From assembly GCA_964514585.1 (NCBI GenBank), contig CAZETU010000001.1, positions 120,901-144,900 on the forward strand: DNA of 24,000 nucleotides. The letters are read 5' to 3'. Every line of letters begins with the position of its first letter. Within the stretch, counting starts at the first letter, position 1. The notes below the pieces were generated by a model. That model was given only the letters and a program-made list of their open reading frames with translations, made no database searches and was not told the origin of the DNA. A program made the translations under genes and the position numbers. Of this stretch, positions 3,157-10,438 are shown piece by piece. The stretch is from Candidatus Woesearchaeota archaeon. Its GTDB lineage: Archaea; Nanobdellota; Nanobdellia; Pacearchaeales; GW2011-AR1.

Positions 3157-3977
3157 TATTTCACTCCGTTAGATTTGCCCGACTTGATTGGAACTTTAGT
3201 TCCCTTTTTTGAGGGTACACCATTGAGCGCAGCTTCTTTCTTCTTCTTCTTAGTAACATCAATAAACCTAGACCCAACCCTCTTCGTAACTTTCTCCAAC
3301 TTCCCATCTAACAACCAATAAACAACATCAGCATACTCCTCAGCCAAATCCGGATCATGAGTAACCATAATAATCGTCTTCCCCTGCTTGTTCAACTTCT
3401 CCAAAAAATGCATAACAATATCCCCAGTCTTAGTATCCAAATTCCCAGTCGGCTCATCAGCAAGAATCACTTCGGGATCATTCGCCAAACTCCGCGCAAT
3501 CGCAACTCTCTGCATCTGCCCCCCAGAAATCTCTCCAGGATAATGATCCATCCTATCATGCAACTCAACCAACTTCAACAACTCCTCAGCCCGCCCAGCC
3601 CGCTCCTCAACACTCGTCCCCTGAAACATCATCGGCAACATCACATTCTCTTTCACCGTCAAATTCGGAATCAAATTAAACGATTGAAAAATAAACCCAA
3701 TCTTCTTCCCCCGAATCTGCGCCAAATCAGACTCACTCAACTCACTAATATCAGCATCATCTAAATAAATCGTCCCAAACGTCGGCATATCCAAACTCCC
3801 AACTAAATTCATCGCCGTCGATTTCCCAGAACCAGAAGGTCCCATAATAGCAACAAACTCTCCCTCATAAACTTTAAACTCCAAATGACTAAGCGCCTTC
3901 ACAACAGAGTCCCCCATGGGGTAATGCTTCGAAACATTCCTCAATCTAATAAACTCTTTCTTTACCTCTTTCGCCAT
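3156..3977 (-). CDS. ABC transporter ATP-binding protein (MacB/LolD-like) with Lys-rich C-terminal tail
   Basis: Walker [10 protein letters not shown], signature [13 protein letters not shown] and Walker B ILADEPT are all present. The ORF track starts at a TTG (3992). I prefer the ATG at 3977 ([15 protein letters not shown]…). Confidence 0.9.
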
Positions 3978-4027
3978 ACAGAAAATACACAAATATCATA
4001 TATAAATATAGTGATAGCAAAACTTAC

Positions 4028-4057
4028 ATTTCACCAGAAATACCTACTGGGTAAACC
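4028..4057. repeat. Copy D of the ACCA-apex hairpin repeat (atttc-acca-gaaat) followed by acctactgggtaaacc
   Basis: Perfect 5-bp stem at 4028-4032/4037-4041 with loop acca. The adjacent 16-mer at 4042-4057 matches 5662-5677 (tRNA-Arg trailer insert) at 15/16 positions. Confidence 0.6.
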
Positions 4058-4075
4058 AAAACAACATGCGTTTAG

Positions 4076-4101
4076 AAAACTTGTAACACAAGTTTTATAA
4101 A
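4076..4101 (+). promoter_or_regulatory. 8-bp perfect inverted repeat overlapping the rpoN TATA box
   Basis: The arms are aaaacttg (4076-4083) and caagtttt (4089-4096). The second arm runs into ttttataaa (4093-4101), which is centred about 26 nt upstream of the rpoN ATG. That spacing fits a leaderless archaeal promoter. Confidence 0.4.
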
Positions 4102-4122
4102 CCAAAATTTCGCTACTTCAAT

Positions 4123-4320
4123 ATGATAATCCCAATAAGATGTTTTAGTTGCGGAAAACCAATCGCACACTTATATCCAAAATACAAAGAAATGGTCGAA
4201 TCAGGCAAGACCCAAAAAGAAGCACTAGACGAGTTAGGCATCAAACGATACTGCTGCAGAGCACAAATTCTAGGACAAACAGACACATTAGAATTGATTA
4301 ATAAATTCAAAAAGTTTTAA
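4123..4320 (+). CDS. rpoN: DNA-directed RNA polymerase subunit N (Rpo10)
   Basis: The 65-aa product MIIPIRCFSCGKPIA…LGIKRYCCRAQIL has the characteristic zinc-binding CxxC…CC pattern and the length of archaeal RpoN / eukaryotic RPB10. Confidence 0.9.
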   Translation: MIIPIRCFSCGKPIAHLYPKYKEMVESGKTQKEALDELGIKRYCCRAQILGQTDTLELINKFKKF

Positions 4321-4340
4321 TTATTTTTTTAAATTTTATC

Positions 4341-4790
4341 ATGGGAAATATAAAAGTTATCTCTTGGGATGTATACGGAACTTTAATAGCAACACATTAT
4401 GATAAATCCACAGATTGCGGGGACATCCCATTAAAACTTAGACCAAGCGCATTAGAAATTCTAACAGAAATAAAATCAAGACAAATCATTCAATGCACAT
4501 GCTCAGATGGCCACTTGGAAAATCTAAAAAACAATTTAAGAGAAGCAGGAATAAATTGGACAGATTTCTTCGACGATTTATACAAAATGGAACCATTCCA
4601 ACAAAAGGATTTCTCTTACATAATAGAAAATTATAATATTAGACCAGAAAACCTCTTAGTTGTCGGAGACAATTATGATATAGATATCTCTTTAGCAAAA
4701 AGACAAGGTTGCAAAACTTTACACGTCCCAGAAAAAGAAGAGTTCAAAAAGAATCCATTAGACACATCAAAAATACTAGAATTATTATAA
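4341..4790 (+). CDS. HAD superfamily hydrolase (DxYGT subtype)
   Basis: Motif I WDVYGTL, motif II CTCSDG and motif IV VVGDNYDIDI are present. 149 aa. Confidence 0.65.
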   Translation: MGNIKVISWDVYGTLIATHYDKSTDCGDIPLKLRPSALEILTEIKSRQIIQCTCSDGHLENLKNNLREAGINWTDFFDDLYKMEPFQQKDFSYIIENYNIRPENLLVVGDNYDIDISLAKRQGCKTLHVPEKEEFKKNPLDTSKILELL

Positions 4791-4871
4791 ATAGACAGTT
4801 CCGCGTGTTCCCACCAAAGACAGTATGGACACATTAGAACTAGTTAACAAATTCAAAAAATTCTAATTATT
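4789..4871. repeat. Chimeric duplicate: a fragment of the 5S rRNA 3' end fused to a fragment of the rpoN 3' end
   Basis: By my hand alignment, 4789-4832 matches 5442-5485 at 38/44 positions (3' terminus of the 5S gene, minus strand). 4828-4871 matches 4282-4325 at 38/44 positions (last 12 rpoN codons, stop and ttatt). The join is at gacac, which both parents share. Confidence 0.75.
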
Positions 4872-4872
4872 A

Positions 4873-5301
4873 TTAATGCCAGTCATAAAAACCACTACTT
4901 ATAACTTTACTAACAAGATGACGCCTAAGCTCACAATCAGGCATTTGCTCAACCTCTCCATCTCTTATCTGAATGGGCCAACACTGCATTTTTCCTCTTG
5001 CATAATAATCAGGTGATTCTCTTAGATGTTTTTTCGCATCTTCAGGAGACTTACCAAGACAGAAAGCAGATTCATTACATACATAACATTTATCAGGATT
5101 CCCAAAATCATGACGTCTCCTTATGGGAACTTTATAAAGATTCAACTTTTTATTATCTTTTTCGAAATCAAATTCTCCAATCAATAATCCCAGTATTCCC
5201 AGTCCGGCTATTCTATTAAATTGTCTTCTATTCAACATTAAATTAACAAGTGAACCAAGTTTATAATAATTATTGAGATAGATTATTATTAAATTTTTCA
5301 A
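4873..5301 (-). CDS. Hypothetical small Cys-containing protein with a twin-arginine (Tat)-like signal
   Basis: 142-aa ORF. The internal Met22 (start at 5238) gives MLNRRQFNRIAGLGILGLLIG, i.e. an RRxF motif plus a hydrophobic region. The mature part contains CYVC and three more Cys. I recognise no family. Confidence 0.5.
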   Translation of the reverse strand: MKNLIIIYLNNYYKLGSLVNLMLNRRQFNRIAGLGILGLLIGEFDFEKDNKKLNLYKVPIRRRHDFGNPDKCYVCNESAFCLGKSPEDAKKHLRESPDYYARGKMQCWPIQIRDGEVEQMPDCELRRHLVSKVISSGFYDWH

Positions 5302-5388
5302 ATTTTTTCTTTATTCTAATTAATCAGCCGAATAAAGTCAAAAGAAATCAAATTATCTGCGACAAAGTCGGTAAGTAATTTGGAACCT

Positions 5389-5439
5389 AAAATTCTGCAG
5401 AATTTTCCCAATGATTTTTTCACCAGAAAAAATGTTAAT
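5389..5439. repeat. Double-hairpin intergenic repeat, copy A
   Basis: Hairpin 1 is aaaattc-tgca-gaatttt (5389-5406). Hairpin 2 is attttttc-acca-gaaaaaat (5414-5433), a perfect 8-bp stem. 35/48 positions are identical to copy B (6119-6166). Confidence 0.7.
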
Positions 5440-5445
5440 AAAAAT
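5440..5445 (-). terminator. Oligo-T (T5) run directly after the 5S rRNA 3' end
   Basis: The minus strand reads …GAGCTGTCTATTTTTATTAAC. Archaeal RNA polymerase terminates at oligo-T tracts. Confidence 0.4.
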
Positions 5446-5552
5446 AGACAGCTCCGTGCGTTCCCATCAAAGACAGTACAGACACGAACATAACAAGCTT
5501 AACTTCTGAGTTCGGAACGGGATCAGGTGTAACCAAGTTATTATGGCCGTCT
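5446..5552 (-). rRNA. 5S ribosomal RNA (orphan, roughly 107 nt, ends approximate)
   Basis: The reverse complement reads AGACGGCCATAATAACTTGGTTACACCTGATCCCGTTCCGAACTCAGAAGTTAAGC…GATGGGAACGCACGGAGCTGTCT. This contains the universal 5S loop/helix motif CCGAACTCAGAAGTTAAGC, the GGGAAC box, and a terminal helix I (AGACGGC / GCTGTCT). Confidence 0.85.
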
Positions 5553-5570
5553 AACATTACATCAAAATTC

Positions 5571-5582
5571 CATTTTATAAAC
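5571..5582 (-). promoter_or_regulatory. TATA box for 5S rRNA
   Basis: The minus strand reads gTTTATAAAAtg, centred about 25 nt upstream of the 5S 5' end. Confidence 0.45.
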
Positions 5583-5592
5583 TTAACGATTC

Positions 5593-5598
5593 AAAAAA
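5593..5598 (-). terminator. Oligo-T (T6) after the distal tRNA-Arg 3'-end copy
   Basis: The minus strand reads …CAGGAGCGTTGAATTTTTTGA. This is the first T-run downstream of tRNA-Arg. Confidence 0.4.
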
Positions 5599-5620
5599 TT
5601 CAACGCTCCTGACAGGACTT
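5599..5620 (-). repeat. Exact 22-nt copy of the tRNA-Arg 3' end (no cloverleaf partner)
   Basis: ttcaacgctcctgacaggactt is identical to 5683-5704, at an offset of 84 nt. Confidence 0.9.
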
Positions 5621-5687
5621 CACTCACCAGAGGGATGTCAAATGGACGCGATCACCAGATCACCTACTGGGTGAACCTCAGGTTCAA

Positions 5688-5763
5688 CGCTCCTGACAGG
5701 ACTTGAACCTGCGACTTCTTCCTTAGGAGGGAAGCACTCTAATCCAAACTGAGCTACAGGAGC
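5688..5763 (-). tRNA. tRNA-Arg (anticodon CCT)
   Basis: The reverse complement folds as a cloverleaf: GCTCCTG TA GCTC AGTTTGGATTA GAGT G CTTCC CTCCTAA GGAAG AAGTC GCAGG TTCAAGT CCTGT CAGGAGC G. 76 nt, no encoded CCA. Confidence 0.9.
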
Positions 5764-5785
5764 ATAAAACAATCAACAGAAAACT

Positions 5786-5797
5786 CTTTTTAAAATT
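5786..5797 (-). promoter_or_regulatory. TATA box for tRNA-Arg
   Basis: The minus strand reads aaTTTTAAAAag, centred about 28 nt upstream of the tRNA 5' end. Confidence 0.4.
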
Positions 5798-5798
5798 A

Positions 5799-5815
5799 AT
5801 GAGGGAAGGAGGATT
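5799..5815 (-). repeat. Exact 17-nt copy of the tRNA-Leu 3' end
   Basis: atgagggaaggaggatt is identical to 5898-5914, at an offset of 99 nt. Confidence 0.9.
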
Positions 5816-5898
5816 AAAAGTCCTTTACGAACTTTTCAGCAAATCTTTGATTTGCGCTTCAAGCTTCTCCGAAGCGCCGGTCGTTCGAATCCGACACA

Positions 5899-5982
5899 TG
5901 AGGGAAGGAGGATTCGAACCCCCGTAAGCATAAAGCTAACAGATCTTGAGTCTGCCCCGTTTGACCACTCCGGCATTCCCTC
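5899..5982 (-). tRNA. tRNA-Leu (anticodon CAA), long variable arm
   Basis: The reverse complement folds as GAGGGAA TG CCG GAGTGGTCAAA CGG G GCAGA CTCAAGA TCTGT TAGCTTTATGCTTAC GGGGG TTCGAAT CCTCC TTCCCTC A. 84 nt. Confidence 0.9.
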
Positions 5983-6013: not shown

Positions 6014-6050
6014 GTTATTGATAGTTTTCATGAGAAATTATGCGGCGAAG

Positions 6051-6083
6051 CCCATGATTTTTTATGAAATAAAAAATAGATAA
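6051..6083. repeat. Hairpin repeat copy C
   Basis: cccatg + attttttat-gaa-ataaaaaat (6057-6077), a perfect 9-bp stem. The lead-in cccatg parallels cccaatg in copy A and cctaacg in copy B. Confidence 0.55.
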
Positions 6084-6115
6084 TATCCGAAATTTATTTC
6101 CAGAAACTATCCCTA

Positions 6116-6166
6116 GGAATTCTAAAAAATTCCCCTAACGATTTTCACACCAGTGAAAATATTAAT
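6116..6166. repeat. Double-hairpin intergenic repeat, copy B
   Basis: Hairpin 1 is ggaatt-ctaaaa-aattcc (6116-6133). Hairpin 2 is attttcac-acca-gtgaaaat (6141-6160), a perfect 8-bp stem. The stem differs from copy A by paired (compensatory) changes. Confidence 0.7.
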
Positions 6167-6290
6167 TCATCTATGCGCGGCCGTTGATTAGGATCGTTGC
6201 GTAGCTTAGGTTTTTGGTTGGGTATTAGGCGAGATAAAAACCTCAGCCTATCTTTCCTAAGAATGCTGATTAAGAGCCCGACAAAGCCCC

Positions 6291-7538
6291 TTAAATTGCC
6301 TTTGTGGGCGTTTTGTAGCACTTGTTATCTTCTAGTAGCCATTTCCAAACTGGCATCAGAATTATTTCCTTGCTTTCAATTTCAAATTTGTCCTCTTGAT
6401 TATGTGTTAAGATTAGCCCCTGTTTTAGCTTCAATTCATTCATTGCTTCCAGTAAGCCATTTATTTCCCTATCTCTATTTTCTTTATTAAAATCATAGCA
6501 AACCTGAATTGCTTGAATAACTTTTTCTTTCTCTTTAACTATAAAATCACATTCTTTGTCTTTTTGAAAATAAAATATTTCTTTGTATTTTTTTCTTAGA
6601 TTTAGGAATACTTCATTTTCTAGCATTTTCCCTTTATCTTTTGAAAAGGAAACTGAGTTAGCATAAGAGAGTCCATTATCTATGGAATAGACTTTTTTTG
6701 GATTAACTTGCTGTTTTTTGTAGGAGTAGCTAAATTTAGGTATTGTGAAAATTAAATAAGAATCCTCCAAGTAAGAAATATAGTCTATGATTGTTTGGAC
6801 TGATTTGACTTCTAACATTTTTTTAAGAGAGTTTGCGGAGAATTCTTTTCCAACATTACTTAATAAATAAATTGCTAATTTATTTAGTATAGCGGTATTT
6901 TTAATCCCAAACCTATTGACTATGTCTCTCATTAAAACATCTCTTAATAATTCATGCAAGAGAGTTTCGTCATCATCTTTTAAGAATTCTGGAAATCCTC
7001 CTTTGTATAAATAATCTGAATAAGATTTTTCATTTGGTTTCTGCTTGGAGAATCTTAAAAATTCAGTATAAGAAAATGGAAAGAGCTCGTAGCTTAAGTG
7101 TCTTCCAGTAAGTCTTGTCCCAAGTTCTCGGCTTAGAAGTGATGCATTTGAACCTGTTATCATTACTTTGTTTTTTCTGTCCACTAAATATCTAATGAAT
7201 TTTTCCCATTTGTCAATATTTTGAATCTCATCAAAAAAGTAAACTCCTCCAGCGCCATAAATTTCATTAAAAATTTCTTCTGCGATATTGAAATCTGTTA
7301 GCTTAAAACCTTCTAGTCTAGGGTCTTCAAGATTTAGATAATAAAAAACTTTTTGTCCTTTTAGAATTTGATTCAGAAGGGTGCTCTTTCCGCATCTTCT
7401 AATCCCTGCAACAACTAAGGCAAAGGACTTATTCAATTTTATTTCTTCAGTCTTTTCTCTAGAGATACCTTTTTCAGTTGATTCTACCCATTTTCTTTGT
7501 TCTTTTATTACTTTGGTTAGGTCTTCTTTTGTTATCAT
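6291..7538 (-). CDS. AAA+ ATPase with C-terminal DUF4143 domain (COG1373-type)
   Basis: Walker A GIRRCGKST and Walker B VYFFDEIQ are present. The AAA_14-type LTGRHLSYELFPFSYTEFL motif is also present. It is followed by the DUF4143-like region (…GKEFSANSLKKML…YLEDSYLIF…). Confidence 0.85.
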   Translation of the reverse strand: MITKEDLTKVIKEQRKWVESTEKGISREKTEEIKLNKSFALVVAGIRRCGKSTLLNQILKGQKVFYYLNLEDPRLEGFKLTDFNIAEEIFNEIYGAGGVYFFDEIQNIDKWEKFIRYLVDRKNKVMITGSNASLLSRELGTRLTGRHLSYELFPFSYTEFLRFSKQKPNEKSYSDYLYKGGFPEFLKDDDETLLHELLRDVLMRDIVNRFGIKNTAILNKLAIYLLSNVGKEFSANSLKKMLEVKSVQTIIDYISYLEDSYLIFTIPKFSYSYKKQQVNPKKVYSIDNGLSYANSVSFSKDKGKMLENEVFLNLRKKYKEIFYFQKDKECDFIVKEKEKVIQAIQVCYDFNKENRDREINGLLEAMNELKLKQGLILTHNQEDKFEIESKEIILMPVWKWLLEDNKCYKTPTKAI

Positions 7539-7558
7539 GTTTTATATAAGATATTTAA

Positions 7559-7618
7559 TTTTATAAAGGTTTCTATTGGGAATGGAAACTTCTTTCTATT
7601 GGGAATGGAAACCTTTAT
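7559..7618 (-). promoter_or_regulatory. TATA box plus two exact 20-nt direct repeats (period 23) framed by an 11-nt inverted repeat, upstream of the ATPase gene
   Basis: tttctattgggaatggaaac occurs at 7570-7589 and 7593-7612. The outer inverted repeat is ataaaggtttc (7563-7573) / gaaacctttat (7608-7618). On the minus strand cTTTATAAAA (7559-7568) is centred about 25 nt upstream of the ATG at 7538. Confidence 0.55.
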
Positions 7619-7753
7619 GTTAACTCTATCCCCTCCCCTAAGCCCCCCACGTCAGTACTATCATACATACATATTATGCCGACTGACTCTTTGGTAATTT
7701 TGTTTAATTTTCATCGACGATAAACTCTGTCCTACACCCAAGAAATCGGAGTC

Positions 7754-8383
7754 CTATTTTTGGGCTTTTTTTGCTAATTTTACTAGCTTATCTAGCCTCG
7801 ATTTTACATATCTTTTGTCAACTGCATCACCATATTTTTTATATTTTTTCACCTTATTTCTATCCGTCACAACGAAAAACCACTTATCATAATTTTCCAA
7901 AACTTTCAGCTTCTCTTTCATCCTACTAATTTTAGAAAAGATGGAACCCGTTTCAATTTCAATCGCAAATCTCTTTCCACGAATTTCAAAAACAATATCC
8001 GGTTTTTTAGTCACAAATAATTCCGTTTCAATCCCATTCTTTTCTAAGAACTCAGAAATATTCTTAGTTAGAAATAGGTGAGTAAAACTTTCATTATGTC
8101 TTGGGAGCAAAAGAAAGTCTTCCATTTTCCCATTCAAGAGATTTTTATATTTTTTAATTTGATAATCATCATTCAAGAGATATTTGACTTCGTGTTTGGT
8201 TATATTTTTCTTATGAAAATATCTTTTATCTGAATCAACTTTTATATTCACACTTCTTCGATAGGTTCCAATAGGCAGAGGTTTATATGGTTCTTCATCT
8301 TCAGTCTCTTCAGAGTCTAATTCTTCATTTTTATCATCCACAGCATATTCTAAATTTACTTTCCCAATTTTCTTCTTCGGCAT
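7754..8383 (-). CDS. Hypothetical protein with a PD-(D/E)XK-like nuclease-fold motif; probably longer at the N terminus (up to 8647)
   Basis: 209-aa ORF. The C-terminal half reads …THLFL…KKPDIVFEIRGKRFAIEIETGS…WFFVV, a D…ExE pattern in a beta-strand context. The acidic N-terminal region is low complexity. The frame stays open upstream (see findings). Confidence 0.55.
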   Translation of the reverse strand: MPKKKIGKVNLEYAVDDKNEELDSEETEDEEPYKPLPIGTYRRSVNIKVDSDKRYFHKKNITKHEVKYLLNDDYQIKKYKNLLNGKMEDFLLLPRHNESFTHLFLTKNISEFLEKNGIETELFVTKKPDIVFEIRGKRFAIEIETGSIFSKISRMKEKLKVLENYDKWFFVVTDRNKVKKYKKYGDAVDKRYVKSRLDKLVKLAKKAQK

Positions 8384-8622
8384 TTTCTTAATCCTTTCTT
8401 TTTCCTCAAGTTCCCATTTTTTATAATTTCTACGCGATTTGTAACGGAAAAATATTAAGAGGATTATTCCAAGAAAAGCAATAGAAAAAATAGTAATAAT
8501 AAAAATCGGATTAATAATGAAAGAGAATAACTTACTAGGAAATTCTTGAATGTTCTTTTTAATTTTTTGAAGTGGTTCTGCAAGAATGACTAAAAGAGCT
8601 CCTACGGATAATAAAAATGGAA

Positions 8623-9825
8623 CTAATGCGTCGTCAGAAGTTTCAATCTTATTGCCTCCTGAATATTTCCATAAACTCGATTAACATCCACCGTTATCGC
8701 AACCATCTGCCTTTTCATATTTTCAACCTGAACTTCTAGTAACTCTGACCTATTTTCTGATTTTGTAAGTCGCTTTTCTAATTCTGTTTTAGTTACATCA
8801 ATTAGTAAATCCTCTTCAGAAATTGTATCTCTCATCCCAAGCATTTCAGAATAATAATGAATCTTGTCAGATTTCTTCCATCCGAATCTGAATTTTAATG
8901 CTGATTCGGATTTGTATCTTGGCAACCAATAGCAACAACTGCAATGCCTAAAATCATACATTGTTAAATCAGAATATTTCTGGCCTGCCAAGCTTTTTTC
9001 ATCACCAAATAGTTTTTTAGCAACTCTTTTCAAATAACGATTCACGACTGGCGGACTAAATTTGAACAGATAATCTTCTGTATCTAATTCATTCTCCTTG
9101 ATGTATCTTTTAACTAATTCGGAACAAATCATCAGCTTAATCCTTCTTCCGAAAGTTTTGCTTATTTCATCCCGAATGTTCAACTCCTTAAAATCCTTAG
9201 ACAAATCAGAAACTTTCACATTCATTAATTCAGTTGGAGACCTAATTCCTGTATCAAATAAAAACATCACAATCGTCTTATATTTTGGGTTGCAGTTTTC
9301 GGAGAATAATTTTATTTGCTCTTCATTTAAATAAACCCATTTGGGTTTCTCTCTAGAAGTATCTAAGTAAGTTGTAATATCTTCAACCTCTTTTCCCGCC
9401 TTCCTTGCGACTTTTTGATACCAGTGCCAGAATGCCTTAAACATCTTGACAAAGTCTCGTGTCGCCTTATATTCGCGCCCGTCCTGCCGTCTTATCACTC
9501 CCTTTCTCATATCAACAAAGAATTGGCAGAGTTGTTGCTCTGTCAATTTAGTCAAGTCATCAACATCTAAAACTTCTTTAAATTTTCTAGTCAGAAAAGT
9601 TAGTCTGAGCCTAATCGTATTAAGTCTTATAAAACTTCTAGCACCTTTTTTCGAAGATAAGGAAGTGTTGATTCCAAGTTCCATATCAATCAAGTATTGT
9701 AGAATTATTGACGAGTTAGCTCTGGAGAGGTCAGGAATGCCCCCTGCTTCCTTGACTCTATTTTTCCAACGGGTCAGCGACCCTTCGTGGTTATAAGGAT
9801 CAATCTTCATGGTGTCAGTGTCCAC
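8623..9825 (-). CDS. Tyrosine recombinase / phage-type integrase
   Basis: 400 aa with a GTG start. It carries box I FDTGIRSPTEL (catalytic Arg), box II YDFRHCSCCYW (HxxR-like), and a C-terminal …SDKIHYYSEML that holds the candidate catalytic Tyr. Confidence 0.85.
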   Translation of the reverse strand: MDTDTMKIDPYNHEGSLTRWKNRVKEAGGIPDLSRANSSIILQYLIDMELGINTSLSSKKGARSFIRLNTIRLRLTFLTRKFKEVLDVDDLTKLTEQQLCQFFVDMRKGVIRRQDGREYKATRDFVKMFKAFWHWYQKVARKAGKEVEDITTYLDTSREKPKWVYLNEEQIKLFSENCNPKYKTIVMFLFDTGIRSPTELMNVKVSDLSKDFKELNIRDEISKTFGRRIKLMICSELVKRYIKENELDTEDYLFKFSPPVVNRYLKRVAKKLFGDEKSLAGQKYSDLTMYDFRHCSCCYWLPRYKSESALKFRFGWKKSDKIHYYSEMLGMRDTISEEDLLIDVTKTELEKRLTKSENRSELLEVQVENMKRQMVAITVDVNRVYGNIQEAIRLKLLTTH

Positions 9826-9967
9826 ATGGACGCGTTATTTAATAATTGTCGAGAACGAAAGAATATAATAGACTGGACAGGACATCTGCTAATTCTTGTT
9901 TTTTTCTGTTTCATTTAGTTTATTTCTAAACAAAAAGTAGTCCCACCAAGATGCCAAAAAGGTAGAA

Positions 9968-10079
9968 TGCGCGGGCGGGGACTCGAACCCCGGTCATTTG
10001 GTCTCTTCATTGAAGGCAATAGATATTCCATCAACTAAACATTTGGAAGCCAAATATTCTGCCACTAAACTACCCACGC
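9968..10079 (-). tRNA. tRNA-Gly (anticodon TCC) with a 41-nt intron at the canonical 37/38 position
   Basis: The reverse complement folds as GCGTGGG TA GTTT AGTGGCA GAAT A TTTGG CTTCCA[intron]A CCAAA TGAC CGGGG TTCGAGT CCCCG CCCGCGC A. The exons sum to 71 nt. Confidence 0.85.
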
Positions 10080-10102: not shown

Positions 10103-10112
10103 GTTTTAAAGT
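10103..10112 (-). promoter_or_regulatory. TATA box for tRNA-Gly (overlaps the HNH gene stop codon)
   Basis: The minus strand reads aaCTTTAAAAcc, centred about 28 nt upstream of the tRNA 5' end. Confidence 0.35.
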
Positions 10113-10438
10113 TTATTGTTTTTGAAATGTTTTTTCCGATGACAGTTGGAACAAAGGGCCTCACACTTATCTAATTCAGACTTTATTCTTTCGATAGAAA
10201 ATCCATCAGCAACCATTTTAGAAATACCCTCTTCTTTCTTTCCAGTTTTATGATGAAAATCAATAGTAGCAGGATGATCTTCTCCACACAAACAACATCG
10301 CAAAGAGGATTTATGTTTCCGAAACCACGCCCGAATTTCATTTTTACGCTTCTTAACATGGGCCTTTTCTGAAGCTTTATTATTCGCATACCACCTACGC
10401 CTACAATCCCTTCTTTTTTCTAAATCCCTGTATGGCAT
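10106..10438 (-). CDS. Small HNH endonuclease-family protein
   Basis: 110 aa with CCLCG…IDFHHK…N…CSNCHRKKH, i.e. a CxxC…HH…CxxCH zinc/HNH signature. The N terminus is basic. Confidence 0.75.
   Translation of the reverse strand: MPYRDLEKRRDCRRRWYANNKASEKAHVKKRKNEIRAWFRKHKSSLRCCLCGEDHPATIDFHHKTGKKEEGISKMVADGFSIERIKSELDKCEALCSNCHRKKHFKNNKL

What the first reader, a model, noticed from the sequence alone, without database searches (positions are those of the whole stretch)
5799..5919. tRNA-Leu shows the same pattern: a 17-nt exact 3'-end copy 99 nt downstream and a 10-bp inverted copy of its T loop in the trailer
- **Direct repeat.** atgagggaaggaggatt (5898-5914: end of the T arm, acceptor 3' strand, discriminator and 1 trailer nt) recurs exactly at 5799-5815, directly abutting the tRNA-Arg TATA box.
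- **Inverted repeat.** In the trailer, gttcgaatcc (5883-5892) is the perfect reverse complement of ggattcgaac (5910-5919, the T-stem/T-loop segment). It brackets the acceptor 3' strand at a 17-nt spacing.
- **Insert.** The 82-nt segment between the copies is densely self-complementary on the minus strand: GCGCTTC…GAAGCGC (7 bp), GCAAAT…ATTTGC (6 bp) and AAAAGT…ACTTTT (6 bp).
- **Interpretation.** Two adjacent tRNAs share this organisation with different sequences. That suggests a common mechanism: site-specific integration scars with att-like duplications, mobile trailer or intron-like modules, or a functional structured 3' trailer. I do not know of a described element with this layout.
Basis: seen in the sequence. 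Interest (0 to 1): 0.7.

Follow-up and report, generated by a model that had tools for sequence, protein, structure and literature searches.

The report
Mini insertion modules behind archaeal tRNAs

Summary
**Observation:** confirmed. The 17-nt direct repeat (5898-5914 and 5799-5815) and the 10-nt inverted T-arm copy (5883-5892 versus 5910-5919) are exact and far beyond chance.

**What it is:** an insertion.
- In related Woese-/Pacearchaeota genomes, tRNA-Leu(CAA) abuts tRNA-Arg(CCT) with 0-3 nt between them. These are empty sites.
- Other relatives carry one to four units at the same place. Each unit is an inverted T-arm piece, then 2-3 hairpins, then a copy of the tRNA 3' end.
- In 58 syntenic loci, 25 of 140 tRNAs have such a copy. 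Periods are 63-183 nt, median 96. The tRNAs involved are Leu, Arg, Gly and Met.
- The inverted piece and the repeat go together (Fisher p = 3e-10).
- Identical or homologous hairpin cores follow different tRNAs within one genome.
- Copy number differs between assemblies of this same organism.
- The hairpins show compensatory changes on the tRNA-sense strand.

**Ruled out or unsupported:** no Rfam family matches, there is no consistent bulge-helix-bulge (intron) motif, and there are no C/D boxes.

**Best reading:** small, non-autonomous insertion modules at tRNA 3' ends that behave like integrative elements (att-type duplication, tandem build-up) and are transcribed as part of the tRNA trailer. 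The enzyme is unknown. The arms of the neighbouring integrase element do not match the modules.

**Verdict:** new variant of a known kind, moderately to highly interesting.

The parts
5899..5982 (-). tRNA-Leu(CAA) gene, complete and intron-less. No CCA is encoded.
   Evidence: ARAGORN; Rfam RF00005 at 54.5 bits
6003..6013 (-). TTTTTATATTG, a TATA-like box about 21-31 nt upstream of tRNA-Leu position +1. Putative promoter.
   Evidence: Sequence. Function is inferred.
5910..5924 (-). Segment 'a': T-stem 5' strand plus T loop of tRNA-Leu. This is the left arm of the inverted repeat.
   Evidence: the repeat finder I1
5898..5914 (-). Segment 'b+t', copy 1: T-loop A58 to the discriminator plus 1 nt (AATCCTCCTTCCCTCAT). 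This is the tRNA-proximal direct repeat.
5878..5892 (-). Segment a': inverted copy of the T-arm 5' half. GGATTCGAAC matches exactly, and 15 nt match at 87%. It starts 5 nt after the repeat.
   Evidence: The inverted copy is associated with 3'-end copies across 152 tRNAs, p = 2.6e-10.
5816..5897 (-). The 82-nt inserted module ('W family'): a' followed by three hairpins at 5877-5854, 5855-5839 and 5836-5816.
   Evidence: Fold z = -2.3. Homologous modules in L075, L071 and L007 show compensatory stem changes. The segment is absent from empty sites in relatives.
5799..5815 (-). Segment 'b+t', copy 2: the displaced original tRNA-Leu 3' end, followed directly by the tRNA-Arg promoter region.
   Evidence: In L015 the equivalent copy abuts tRNA-Arg itself.
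5786..5798 (-). TAATTTTAAAAAG, a TATA-like box about 22-34 nt upstream of tRNA-Arg.
   Evidence: Sequence. Similar promoter spacers occur in relatives with and without modules. Function is inferred.
5688..5763 (-). tRNA-Arg(CCT) gene
5599..5704 (-). The parallel tRNA-Arg unit. Repeat copy 1 is at 5683-5704, the insert at 5621-5682 and repeat copy 2 at 5599-5620. A T6 terminator-like run follows at about 5593-5598.
   Evidence: A homologous insert occurs in L008 and L076. An extra 56-nt unit is present in three other assemblies of the same organism.
5443..5554 (-). 5S rRNA gene, downstream of the tRNA pair. Its own 3' end is duplicated at 4782-4832.
   Evidence: Rfam at 74.2 bits; repeat D1
6173..9977 (-). 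Neighbouring integrase-bearing element, integrated at tRNA-Gly(TCC). It contains the integrase (8623-9825), an ORF of 209 aa and an AAA_14/DUF4143 ATPase. The candidate far-end att copy is CGGCCGCGCAT at 6173-6183, against CGCCCGCGCAT at 9967-9977.
   Evidence: PHROG_1 integrase, E = 8e-17; Pfam. The L016 homologue is flanked by a 13-nt repeat of the tRNA 3' end.

Best explanation
**What it is.** The 82-bp segment is a small, non-coding, hairpin-rich insertion module. [quoted passage not shown]

**How the insertion is laid out.**
- The event duplicated, or recombined within, the last 17 bp of the gene, from T-loop A58 to one base past the discriminator.
- The gene therefore stays intact. Its original 3' end now lies 99 bp downstream, still attached to its old neighbour, the tRNA-Arg promoter.
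- The module begins with an inverted copy of the tRNA's own T-arm 5' half. Together with the real T arm this forms an inverted repeat bracketing the duplicated segment.
- The tRNA-Arg next door carries a different module of the same design.

**What is shown.**
- It is an insertion.
- It belongs to recurrent families found behind many tRNAs in Woese-/Pacearchaeota (DPANN archaea).
- Units pile up in tandem next to the tRNA.
- Copy number changes between strains.
- Hairpin cores with precise ends recur behind different tRNAs in one genome.

**What is inferred.**
- The modules are non-autonomous mobile elements moved in trans by a recombinase that recognises tRNA T arms. They would be the miniature counterpart of integrative elements and cis-mobilisable elements that accumulate at tRNA or tmRNA genes.
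- The inverted T-arm copy supplies the second, symmetric arm of the recombination site.
- In this organism the modules are read through as part of the tRNA 3' trailer. Their hairpins are kept because a single-stranded form, RNA or DNA, matters for their propagation or processing.
For: **It is an insertion.**
- In relatives, tRNA-Leu and tRNA-Arg are 0-3 nt apart in L020, L041, L057, L006, L026 and L044. The same site is filled in the window and in L004, L008, L015, L025, L030 and L032.
- In L015 and L012 the distal repeat abuts the next tRNA and includes its first bases.

**It recurs.**
- 25 of 140 tRNAs in 58 syntenic loci have a 3'-end copy. Periods run 63-183 nt.
- The left edge of the repeat lies 13-19 nt (two outliers 23 and 26) before the tRNA 3' end, in the T loop or T-stem 3' strand.
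- Further cases follow Leu(TAG), Arg(TCT) and Met(CAT).

**The inverted T-arm piece belongs to the module.** It is present in 19 of 36 tRNAs with a repeat and 5 of 116 without (p = 2.6e-10). At least three of those five have a repeat that the strict criterion missed.

**Tandem and mixed arrays exist.** There are up to five repeat copies. L039 tRNA-Gly has the order A-A-B-C, with the tRNA-distal repeats degenerate.

**The same core follows different tRNAs.**
- In L039, 52 nt are identical behind Gly and Leu.
- In L010, homologous cores sit behind Arg and Gly.

**Strains differ.** Three other assemblies of this organism, 100% identical in the aligned segment up to the array, carry three Arg repeat copies against two in the window.

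**The organism's other tRNAs show it too.**
- Leu(AAG) has a 45-nt degenerate 3' copy about 120 nt downstream.
- Gly(TCC) carries an integrase element.

**tRNA-targeting integrases are common in this clade.**
- 2203 homologues at E <= 1e-20.
- They sit directly after tRNA-Gly, tRNA-Glu and tRNA-Asp genes.
- The L016 element's repeat starts at tRNA position 62, the same point where the family-1 cores sit.

**The hairpins are under structural constraint.** In family 3, 98.5% of cells are paired against 85% in shuffles. Seven pairs show double changes, with 0 of 500 shuffles reaching that. Slid controls collapse. G.U pairs lie on the tRNA-sense strand.

**The principle is known.** Tandem islands flanked by a 20-bp ssrA 3' repeat, inserted in the T loop, are described in PMC3146451. 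Partial-tRNA-separated tandem elements and remnants are described in 10.1101/2020.12.28.424599.
Against: - No recombinase or autonomous parent element could be tied to the modules. The conserved arms of the neighbouring integrase family (ACCyTTTTGrCCA..GGGGAC..TTTTTGTTTAGAAATAA) do not occur in them.
- A 63-110-bp circle is too small to be a comfortable substrate for a classical integrase.
- The inverted arms are 11-22 bp apart, not the 6-8 bp typical of tyrosine recombinases (my knowledge of those enzymes).
- Identical cores combined with different tRNA-specific repeats do not fit simple att homology. They look more like a target-site duplication.
- A plain duplication, in turn, does not explain the target-derived inverted copy, or the second direct T-arm copy seen in families 1 and 3.
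- The window's own Leu core was found only once in this organism. Elsewhere it appears only as diverged homologues at the same kind of site.
- The RNA-like covariation would equally fit a host function.
Confidence: 0.5

Rival explanations
1. **Functional structured 3' trailer or small RNA.** The module is a host-beneficial RNA co-transcribed with the tRNA. It might regulate or assist tRNA processing, act as a tRNA 3'-half mimic, or act as an antisense to the T arm. The tRNA-derived pieces would be functional pairing elements rather than recombination scars.
For: - Hairpins are conserved with compensatory changes, and G.U pairs lie on the tRNA-sense strand.
- In the window, both units lie between the tRNA and the first strong T-run. 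T6 follows the Arg array, and nothing longer than T4 occurs in or after the Leu unit.
- The consensus fold pairs a T-stem-5'-like strand in the module with the T-stem 3' strand of the repeat. This gives a pseudo-T-arm with an acceptor-3' tail.
- The inverted piece tracks the local tRNA sequence, for example L002 against L010.
Against: - Presence or absence varies among close relatives and strains. Unrelated core families occupy the same site. Copy number runs from 1 to 4.
- Many tRNAs of the same type lack any module.
- In several families a T4-T7 run directly follows each repeat and could terminate transcription before the core.
- There is no Rfam match and there are no C/D boxes.
- Pairing of the inverted piece with the T arm would compete with tRNA folding.
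Confidence: 0.2
2. **Target-site-duplicating insertion by an unknown integrase with a long staggered cut.** A Cas1/casposase-like or other enzyme uses the tRNA T arm as a 'leader'. The core (X) is the mobile entity. The 15-21-bp repeat is made from the target at each insertion, which builds polar arrays.
For: - The same core combines with different tRNA-specific repeats within one genome.
- The repeat can include bases of the downstream neighbour gene.
- Repeat length clusters by family: 16-17, 18-19 and 19-21 nt.
- Identical units lie next to the tRNA and degenerate ones lie distally.
- Casposons are reported to target tRNA 3' ends with target-site duplications and to integrate in tandem. PMC4779613 was listed; its details rest on my own knowledge.
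Against: - No terminal inverted repeats are apparent at the core ends.
- No Cas1 or other candidate enzyme was seen in the loci examined.
- Repeat lengths overall span 12-26 nt.
- The model does not explain the inverted and second direct T-arm copies.
Confidence: 0.15
3. **Local replication slippage, template switching or unequal recombination.** The native tRNA trailer was rearranged with no mobile element involved. The palindromic T arm would promote inverted-plus-direct duplications.
For: - Exact tandem units and copy-number change occur.
- Some arrays end with a partial unit, so the true repeat is 37-47 nt (L014, L015 Gly, L033).
- The T loop contains the palindrome TTCGAA.
Against: - Slippage cannot create the core sequences.
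- It cannot place identical or homologous cores behind different tRNAs.
- Empty sites have no precursor trailer at all, because Leu abuts Arg.
- The extra Arg unit in other strains has a junction with one untemplated base rather than a clean microhomology join.
Confidence: 0.1
4. **Non-canonical intron, or a piece of a split or permuted tRNA.** The 99-nt segment between the two repeats would be spliced out, or the distal 3' end would be used in trans.
For: - DPANN archaea are known for split tRNAs and odd introns (my knowledge; reviews listed).
- Removing exactly one period would restore the same tRNA.
Against: - The tRNA is complete and scores normally without any splicing.
- A strict bulge-helix-bulge scan of 36 units gave no consistent motif, and none at the unit boundaries.
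- A central helix between two identical repeat copies would need a self-complementary 4-mer, which the Leu repeat lacks.
Confidence: 0.03

Closest known systems
Integrative elements that target tRNA or tmRNA 3' ends, and their tandem accretion. Examples are Dehalococcoides ssrA genomic islands, tycheposons and cis-mobilisable elements (CIMEs).
   Same: - The RNA gene stays intact, with a partial 3' copy in direct orientation at the far end.
- The left edge of the repeat lies in the T loop. In one case here it lies in the anticodon arm.
- New arrivals sit next to the gene and push older ones outward.
- Integrase-less members are flanked by att copies.
- Populations differ in content (for the published systems; here).
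   Different: - The inserts are 43-133 bp rather than kilobases. They carry no genes and are too small for a conventional excised circle.
- Each starts with an inverted copy of the local T arm.
- Identical cores occur with different tRNA-specific repeats.
- The cores show RNA-type structural covariation.
- No cognate integrase was identified.
Casposon integration and CRISPR spacer integration (Cas1-family integrases)
   Same: - The target is the 3' end of a tRNA gene.
- A long duplication of the target occurs, and tandem insertions share the duplicated segment.
- The array is polar, lying behind a fixed 'leader'.

The casposon facts rest on my knowledge; PMC4779613 and PMC4046053 were listed.
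   Different: - No Cas1 gene and no terminal inverted repeats were seen.
- The duplication is 12-26 bp and variable.
- Inserts are repeated copies of a few structured families, not unique spacers.
- The inverted T-arm copy has no counterpart.
MITEs and hairpin-bearing non-autonomous elements, such as IS200/IS605-derived PATEs and REP elements
   Same: - Small, non-coding, rich in hairpins and multi-copy.
- Cores have precise ends and insert at a specific sequence.
- A Y1 transposase fragment occurs in one related locus (L090).
   Different: - There are no terminal inverted repeats.
- The flanking repeat is long and derived from the tRNA.
- The elements occur only behind tRNA genes, on the tRNA strand.
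- No parent element is known.
tRNA intron transposition and T-loop-disrupted (split or permuted) tRNA genes in Archaea
   Same: - Related short inserts are found at the same T-loop position in different tRNAs.
- The setting is archaeal.
- A link between mobile elements and disruption of the tRNA 3' half has been proposed (PMC3293823, listed; reviews listed).
   Different: - The functional tRNA here is uninterrupted.
- The interrupted copy is a downstream pseudo-3'-end.
- There is no bulge-helix-bulge motif.

Membership tests
Integrase-type (att) integration at a tRNA gene | Intact tRNA gene plus a direct partial copy of its 3' end bounding the insert | tested here: met
   17-nt exact copy 99 nt downstream. 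The tRNA is complete.
Integrase-type (att) integration at a tRNA gene | Empty site in related genomes | tested here: met
   Leu and Arg are 0-3 nt apart in six relatives.
Integrase-type (att) integration at a tRNA gene | Repeat starts in the T loop or anticodon loop and runs to or past the 3' end | tested here: met
   The left edge is 13-19 nt (two outliers 23 and 26) before the 3' end in 25 cases. The 45-nt copy for Leu(AAG) starts in the anticodon arm. A bona fide element in L016 starts at position 62.
Integrase-type (att) integration at a tRNA gene | The element encodes, or is demonstrably served by, a site-specific recombinase | tested here: not met
   The 82-nt insert has no coding capacity. 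The arms of the adjacent integrase family are absent from the modules. No close relative of the integrase was found in viral contigs.
Integrase-type (att) integration at a tRNA gene | Excision to a circle and re-integration | not testable with these tools
   This needs read-level data or an experiment.
Cis-mobilisable element / tandem accretion | Several att-bounded units in tandem behind one gene, with differing content | tested here: met
   L039 Gly has the order A-A-B-C. The L039 Leu array has three units from two families. L007 has a mini unit followed by a 285-aa ORF cassette.
MITE (non-autonomous DNA transposon) | Terminal inverted repeats and a short target-site duplication of fixed length | tested here: not met
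   The ends of the insert are not complementary (sequence). Repeats span 12-26 nt.
MITE (non-autonomous DNA transposon) | Multiple dispersed copies of one core in a genome | tested here: inconclusive
   Met for families 1 and 2 (L039 and L010). The window's Leu core was seen only once in about 40 kb of this organism.
Archaeal BHB intron / split or permuted tRNA | Bulge-helix-bulge motif at the boundaries, and a tRNA that is incomplete without processing | tested here: not met
   No consistent motif in 36 units. The tRNA is complete.
C/D box or other described small RNA family | Match to a curated model, or box motifs | tested here: not met
   A permissive Rfam scan of 5560-5930 returned only the tRNA. 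Gathering-threshold scans of the window and six loci returned only tRNA and 5S. No RUGAUGA/CUGA pair is present in the window's units (sequence).
CRISPR array | Short repeats separated by unique spacers, with cas genes | tested here: not met
   The 'spacers' are repeated copies of a few families. The repeat is the tRNA 3' end. No cas gene was noted among the ORFs and called genes examined, though not all window ORFs were scanned.
Casposon-like target-site duplication | Cas1-family integrase, terminal inverted repeats and a 14-15-bp duplication | tested here: inconclusive
   The duplication includes bases derived from the target flank. However, no terminal inverted repeats or Cas1 were seen, and lengths are 12-26 nt.

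The most novel reading that the evidence does not exclude
These units are a previously undescribed class of roughly 50-130-nt structured, non-coding mobile modules in DPANN archaea that are specific for the T-loop/3' end of tRNA genes.

- The hairpin core (X) is the mobile entity.
- At each insertion, three pieces are built from the target itself: the 15-21-bp tRNA 3'-end repeat, the inverted T-arm copy and, in some families, a second direct T-arm copy.
- The route would be a long staggered cut or a single-strand- or RNA-guided mechanism.
- The result is a polar array behind a tRNA 'leader', an architecture formally parallel to casposon and CRISPR integration but without known enzymes.
Probability: 0.25. 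Interest if true: 0.85.

Novelty: new variant of a known kind. Interest (0 to 1): 0.62.

Why it matters
- **Scale.** About one tRNA gene in six, in this syntenic sample of Woese-/Pacearchaeota, carries a miniature, structured, copy-number-variable module that regenerates the tRNA 3' end. This layer of genome dynamics in very small archaeal genomes is not annotated at present.
- **Annotation.** The partial tRNA copies and pseudo-T-arms can confuse tRNA finders and assemblers.
- **Mobile-element biology.** What is the smallest unit that can exploit a tRNA attachment site, and what moves it?
- **RNA biology.** The modules are probably transcribed with the tRNA and keep conserved hairpins. One family keeps a tandem G.A motif.
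- **Evolution.** If the repeat and the inverted arm are made from the target at insertion, this would be a new insertion mechanism with a formal resemblance to the origin of CRISPR arrays.
- **Practical use.** The strain-level polymorphism gives a convenient natural marker and a testable system in metagenomes.

Tried and rejected
- **Chance.** Rejected by shuffles.
- **Assembly artefact.** Rejected. The same architecture appears in dozens of independent assemblies, and the Leu unit is identical in four assemblies of this organism.
- **Known RNA family.** Nothing matched in Rfam at gathering or permissive thresholds.
- **Intron, circular RNA, split or permuted tRNA.** No consistent bulge-helix-bulge motif.
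- **C/D-box guide for T-loop methylation.** There is no C box. The CUGA after the Arg inverted piece would point at A57 rather than C56, and it is absent from the Leu unit (sequence).
- **Opposite-strand pseudo-tRNA.** No tRNA hit on the plus strand. The apparent T arm there pairs poorly.
- **MITE with terminal inverted repeats.** The ends are not complementary.
- **Remnant arms of the neighbouring integrase element.** The conserved arm motifs of that family are not in the modules.
- **Virus-borne attP.**
  - The window's Leu core is absent from viral contigs.
  - The 'T arm ... inverted T arm' pattern hit only three loci in two contigs, where it looks like ordinary hairpins.
  - The integrase has no close relative in viral contigs.
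- **An early misassignment.** I first took the intron-containing tRNA at 9968-10079 for tRNA-Trp. It is tRNA-Gly(TCC).
- **A possible repeat between 6080-6175 and 5360-5445.** Not significant by BLAST.
- **An a' 'imported from tRNA-Gly' in the L010 Arg unit.** This rests on one base and was dropped.
Full report
**1. Setting**

The window comes from a DPANN archaeon of the Woese-/Pacearchaeota group. Its SecF has relatives of up to 83% identity in MAGs labelled Woesearchaeota, Pacearchaeota or Nanoarchaeota.

On the minus strand the order of features is as follows.

| Feature | Coordinates |
|---|---|
| tRNA-Gly(TCC), with intron | 10079-9968 |
| Tyrosine integrase | 9825-8623 |
| ORF, 209 aa | 8383-7754 |
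| AAA_14/DUF4143 ATPase | 7538-6291 |
| tRNA-Leu(CAA) | 5982-5899 |
| tRNA-Arg(CCT) | 5763-5688 |
| 5S rRNA | 5554-5443 |

**2.

- The 17-mer ATGAGGGAAGGAGGATT occurs exactly twice, at 5898-5914 inside the tRNA and at 5799-5815. No shuffle gave a match.
- GGATTCGAAC occurs once on each strand, at 5910-5919 and 5883-5892, against 0.03 expected. The inverted repeat extends to 15 nt at 87%.
The 99-nt unit folds better than shuffles, z = -2.3.
- tRNA-Arg shows the same design with a 22-nt repeat 84 nt apart and a 9-nt inverted T-arm copy. Its fold is not exceptional, z = -0.6.

**3. It is an insertion**

I fetched 57 syntenic loci through SecF. The Leu(CAA)-Arg(CCT) pair is conserved next to SecF.

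- *Empty sites.* In L020, L041, L057, L006, L026 and L044 the two genes are 0-3 nt apart.
- *Filled sites.* In the window and in L004, L008, L015, L025, L030 and L032, the space holds one or two units of the form 'insert plus copy of the Leu 3' end'.
- *Which copy is the original.* In L015 the distal copy abuts tRNA-Arg directly, and the repeat includes the first base of tRNA-Arg. In L012 the Arg(CCT) repeat includes the first bases of the next tRNA. The distal copy is therefore the original 3' end, and the tRNA-proximal copy came with, or was made by, the insertion.

**4. It is a widespread, composite module**

*Frequency.* In the unbiased set (57 loci plus the window), 25 of 140 tRNAs have a copy of their last 13 nt (at most 1 mismatch) 20-260 nt downstream.

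| tRNA | With copy / total |
|---|---|
| Leu(CAA) | 10 / 34 |
| Arg(CCT) | 7 / 38 |
| Gly(TCC) | 3 / 36 |
| Leu(AAG) | 3 / 9 |

- Periods run 63-183 nt, median 96.
- The left edge of the repeat lies 13-19 nt before the tRNA end (two outliers at 23 and 26), in the T loop or T-stem 3' strand.
- The right edge lies 0-4 nt past the tRNA end, unless whole units repeat.

*More cases.* A metagenome scan for two copies of the Leu 3' end 58-88 nt apart gave 12 more loci. These include units behind Leu(TAG), Arg(TCT) and Met(CAT).

*The inverted piece belongs to the module.* An inverted match of at least 8 nt to the tRNA's own T arm, within about 35 nt of the 3' end, occurs in 19 of 36 tRNAs with a repeat and 5 of 116 without (Fisher p = 2.6e-10). 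At least three of those five have a repeat that the strict criterion missed.

*General anatomy.* The layout is tRNA[a b t] - a' - (a2) - X - [b t].
- a is the T-stem 5' strand plus the T loop.
- b is the rest of the T arm, the acceptor 3' strand and the discriminator.
- t is 1-5 nt of native trailer.
- a' is an inverted copy of a.
- a2 is a second direct copy of a, seen in some families.
- X is a family-specific core of 2-3 hairpins.

**5. Families, mobility and dynamics**

Several core families recur.

- *The window's family ('W').* The window's Leu unit has diverged homologues in L075 (Leu-CAA, same synteny), L071 (Leu-TAG) and L007. They share CGGATTCGAACGA. Their terminal hairpin keeps pairing through double changes, for example TACTTAC/GTAAGTA against TGCTTGC/GCAAGCA.
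- *Family 1* (..ACTTCAA..TTGAAGT..CAGAAA..TTTCTGAG) follows Gly, Leu and Arg tRNAs. In L039 a 52-nt core is 100% identical behind tRNA-Gly and within the tRNA-Leu array. The repeat and the inverted piece match each local tRNA.
- *Family 2* (..GAGATGCAAATTGTGAGTA) follows Arg, Leu, Gly and Met tRNAs. In L010 homologous copies follow both Arg and Gly.
- *Arrays.* Arrays reach five repeat copies and can mix families. L039 Gly has the order A-A-B-C, with the distal repeats degenerate. Gene-sized cassettes can sit in the same arrays, as with the 285-aa ORF in L007.
- *Strain variation.* Three other assemblies of this same organism, 100% identical in the aligned segment up to the array, carry three Arg repeat copies. 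The extra 56-nt unit consists of the repeat, the first 34 nt of the insert and one further T. The window has two copies.
- *Other tRNAs of this organism.* Leu(AAG) has a 45-nt degenerate copy, from the anticodon-stem 3' strand to the 3' end, about 120 nt downstream. All four tRNAs seen in about 40 kb of this organism therefore carry some 3' duplication.

**6. Structure**

- *Family 3.* For seven distinct sequences behind Leu(TAG), RNAalifold predicts 19 pairs.
  - 98.5% of cells are paired against 85% in shuffles.
  - Seven pairs show changes on both sides against 2.7 expected, with 0 of 500 shuffles as high.
  - All measures collapse when the partners are slid.
- *Strand.* G.U pairs lie on the tRNA-sense strand. 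The constraint therefore acts on the sense-strand RNA or the top-strand single-stranded DNA.
- *Shape.* The consensus closes the unit with a T-stem-like helix. The GGGGG of the a2 copy pairs with the CCTCC of the repeat. This helix encloses two hairpins, one with a tandem G.A (CGAG/CGAG) motif. The window unit folds similarly, with GGAG pairing to CUCC and enclosing three hairpins.
- *Transcription (inferred).* In the window no T-run longer than 4 separates the tRNAs from the units, and a T6 run follows the Arg array. Read-through transcription is therefore likely.

**7. Links to integrases**

- The 400-aa ORF is a tyrosine integrase (PHROG_1, E = 8e-17; PF00589 is recorded for many homologues).
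- Its 77%-identical homologue in L016 lies in a 4.7-kb element behind tRNA-Gly(TCC). That element is flanked by the 13-nt repeat CCCGTCCGCGCAT, which covers positions 62-73 plus one base, and has long inverted arms.
- The window's element has a candidate far-end copy at 6173-6183, matching 10 of 11 positions.
- Homologues number 2203 at E <= 1e-20, and they sit directly after tRNA-Glu and tRNA-Asp genes elsewhere. tRNA 3' ends in this clade are therefore under frequent site-specific recombination.
- The starting point of the L016 repeat, position 62, is where the family-1 cores sit.
- Against a direct link, the conserved arm motifs of this integrase family are not found in the mini modules.

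**8. Interpretation**

*Shown.* These are insertions that regenerate the tRNA 3' end. They belong to recurrent families, accumulate in tandem, vary between strains, and have structurally constrained hairpins.

*Inferred.* They are non-autonomous mobile modules that exploit tRNA-specific recombination, miniature counterparts of att-flanked integrative and cis-mobilisable elements. The published parallels are Dehalococcoides ssrA islands, which have a 20-bp repeat, insert in the T loop and form tandem islands (PMC3146451), and tycheposons, which show partial tRNAs between tandem elements and remnants (10.1101/2020.12.28.424599).

*What no known mechanism explains.*
- att homology does not explain identical cores with different repeats.
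- A plain target-site duplication does not explain the target-derived inverted and second direct T-arm copies.
- Units of 63-110 bp are very small for circular intermediates.

Rivals are a host-functional trailer RNA, a Cas1-like long-stagger insertion, slippage only (which can explain array expansion but not origin), and an intron or split tRNA (rejected).

**9. Novelty**

My literature searches found general accounts of partial tRNA genes left by integration (PMC9897764) and of accretion. They found nothing describing roughly 100-nt structured modules with an inverted T-arm piece behind archaeal tRNAs. The library is not exhaustive. I classify the finding as a new variant of a known kind. 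There is a real chance, about 0.25, that the insertion mechanism itself is new.

Noticed in passing
window 6173-9977 (minus strand): An integrated element of about 3.8 kb lies behind the intron-containing tRNA-Gly(TCC) at 9968-10079. It contains a tyrosine integrase (8623-9825), an ORF of 209 aa and an AAA_14/DUF4143 ATPase. The candidate far-end att copy CGGCCGCGCAT is at 6173-6183. A further degenerate copy, TTCGCCGCAT, lies at 6040-6049.
   Followed up: partly
window 4282-4328, 4782-4874 and 5435-5485: The last 47 nt of rpoN (4123-4320, + strand) recur at 4828-4874 (85% identical). The last 51 nt of the 5S rRNA recur at 4782-4832 (84% identical). The two copies are fused back-to-back with a 5-nt overlap (GACAC). 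A HAD-hydrolase gene (4341-4790) and an ORF of 142 aa with a twin-arginine-like signal (4873-5301) lie in the two intervals. The permuted junction suggests integration of a circularised rpoN-5S intergenic segment, or a tandem duplication. In L008, rpoN and the 5S gene appear to lie about 50-100 nt apart, with no room for these two genes.
   Followed up: partly
L058, L059/L081, L082 and L083 (same organism, other samples), equivalent to window 5599-5704: Three other assemblies carry an extra 56-nt unit in the tRNA-Arg array. It consists of the repeat, the first 34 nt of the insert and one T. The spacing is 56+84, against 84 in the window.
   Followed up: yes
L081 12994-13225 (same organism, about 10 kb to the left of the window): tRNA-Leu(AAG) is followed, after about 100 nt, by a 45-nt degenerate copy running from its anticodon-stem 3' strand to its 3' end. 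The copy is preceded by a small GCGCC..GGCGC hairpin.
   Followed up: partly
window 4042-4057 versus 5662-5677: A 16-nt near-repeat, ACCTACTGGGT(A/G)AACC, links the tRNA-Arg insert to a site just upstream of the promoter region of the ABC-transporter operon. Both contain a CACCCAG..CTGGTG inverted motif, which may be a protein-binding site.
   Followed up: no
window 7563-7618: Two exact 20-nt direct repeats (TTTCTATTGGGAATGGAAAC, 23 nt apart) lie inside a 26-nt inverted repeat, just upstream of the AAA_14/DUF4143 ATPase gene. The arrangement looks like an operator.
   Followed up: no
L001-L057 (syntenic loci): The Gly-Leu-Arg(-5S) tRNA cluster lies on either strand relative to SecF in different relatives. 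Inversions with breakpoints near these tRNA genes must therefore be frequent.
   Followed up: no
L024, about 3200-4150 (between the tRNA-Leu array and tRNA-Arg): A free-standing 312-aa ORF with two LAGLIDADG-like motifs (a homing-endonuclease type) lies directly after a two-unit tRNA-Leu array.
   Followed up: no
L090 1-346; L081 14673-15206: A Y1 (IS200/IS605-type) transposase fragment lies next to an integrase element in a related archaeon. In the window's organism, a 177-aa ORF with a weak serine-'Recombinase' domain hit lies beside the ribosomal protein S9 gene. Both are candidate enzymes and were not examined.
   Followed up: no
window 10106-10438: A 110-aa protein with a weak HNH match is conserved (57-74% identity) between tRNA-Gly and SecF in ten relatives (several hits among loci with and without modules). 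Its function is unknown.
   Followed up: no
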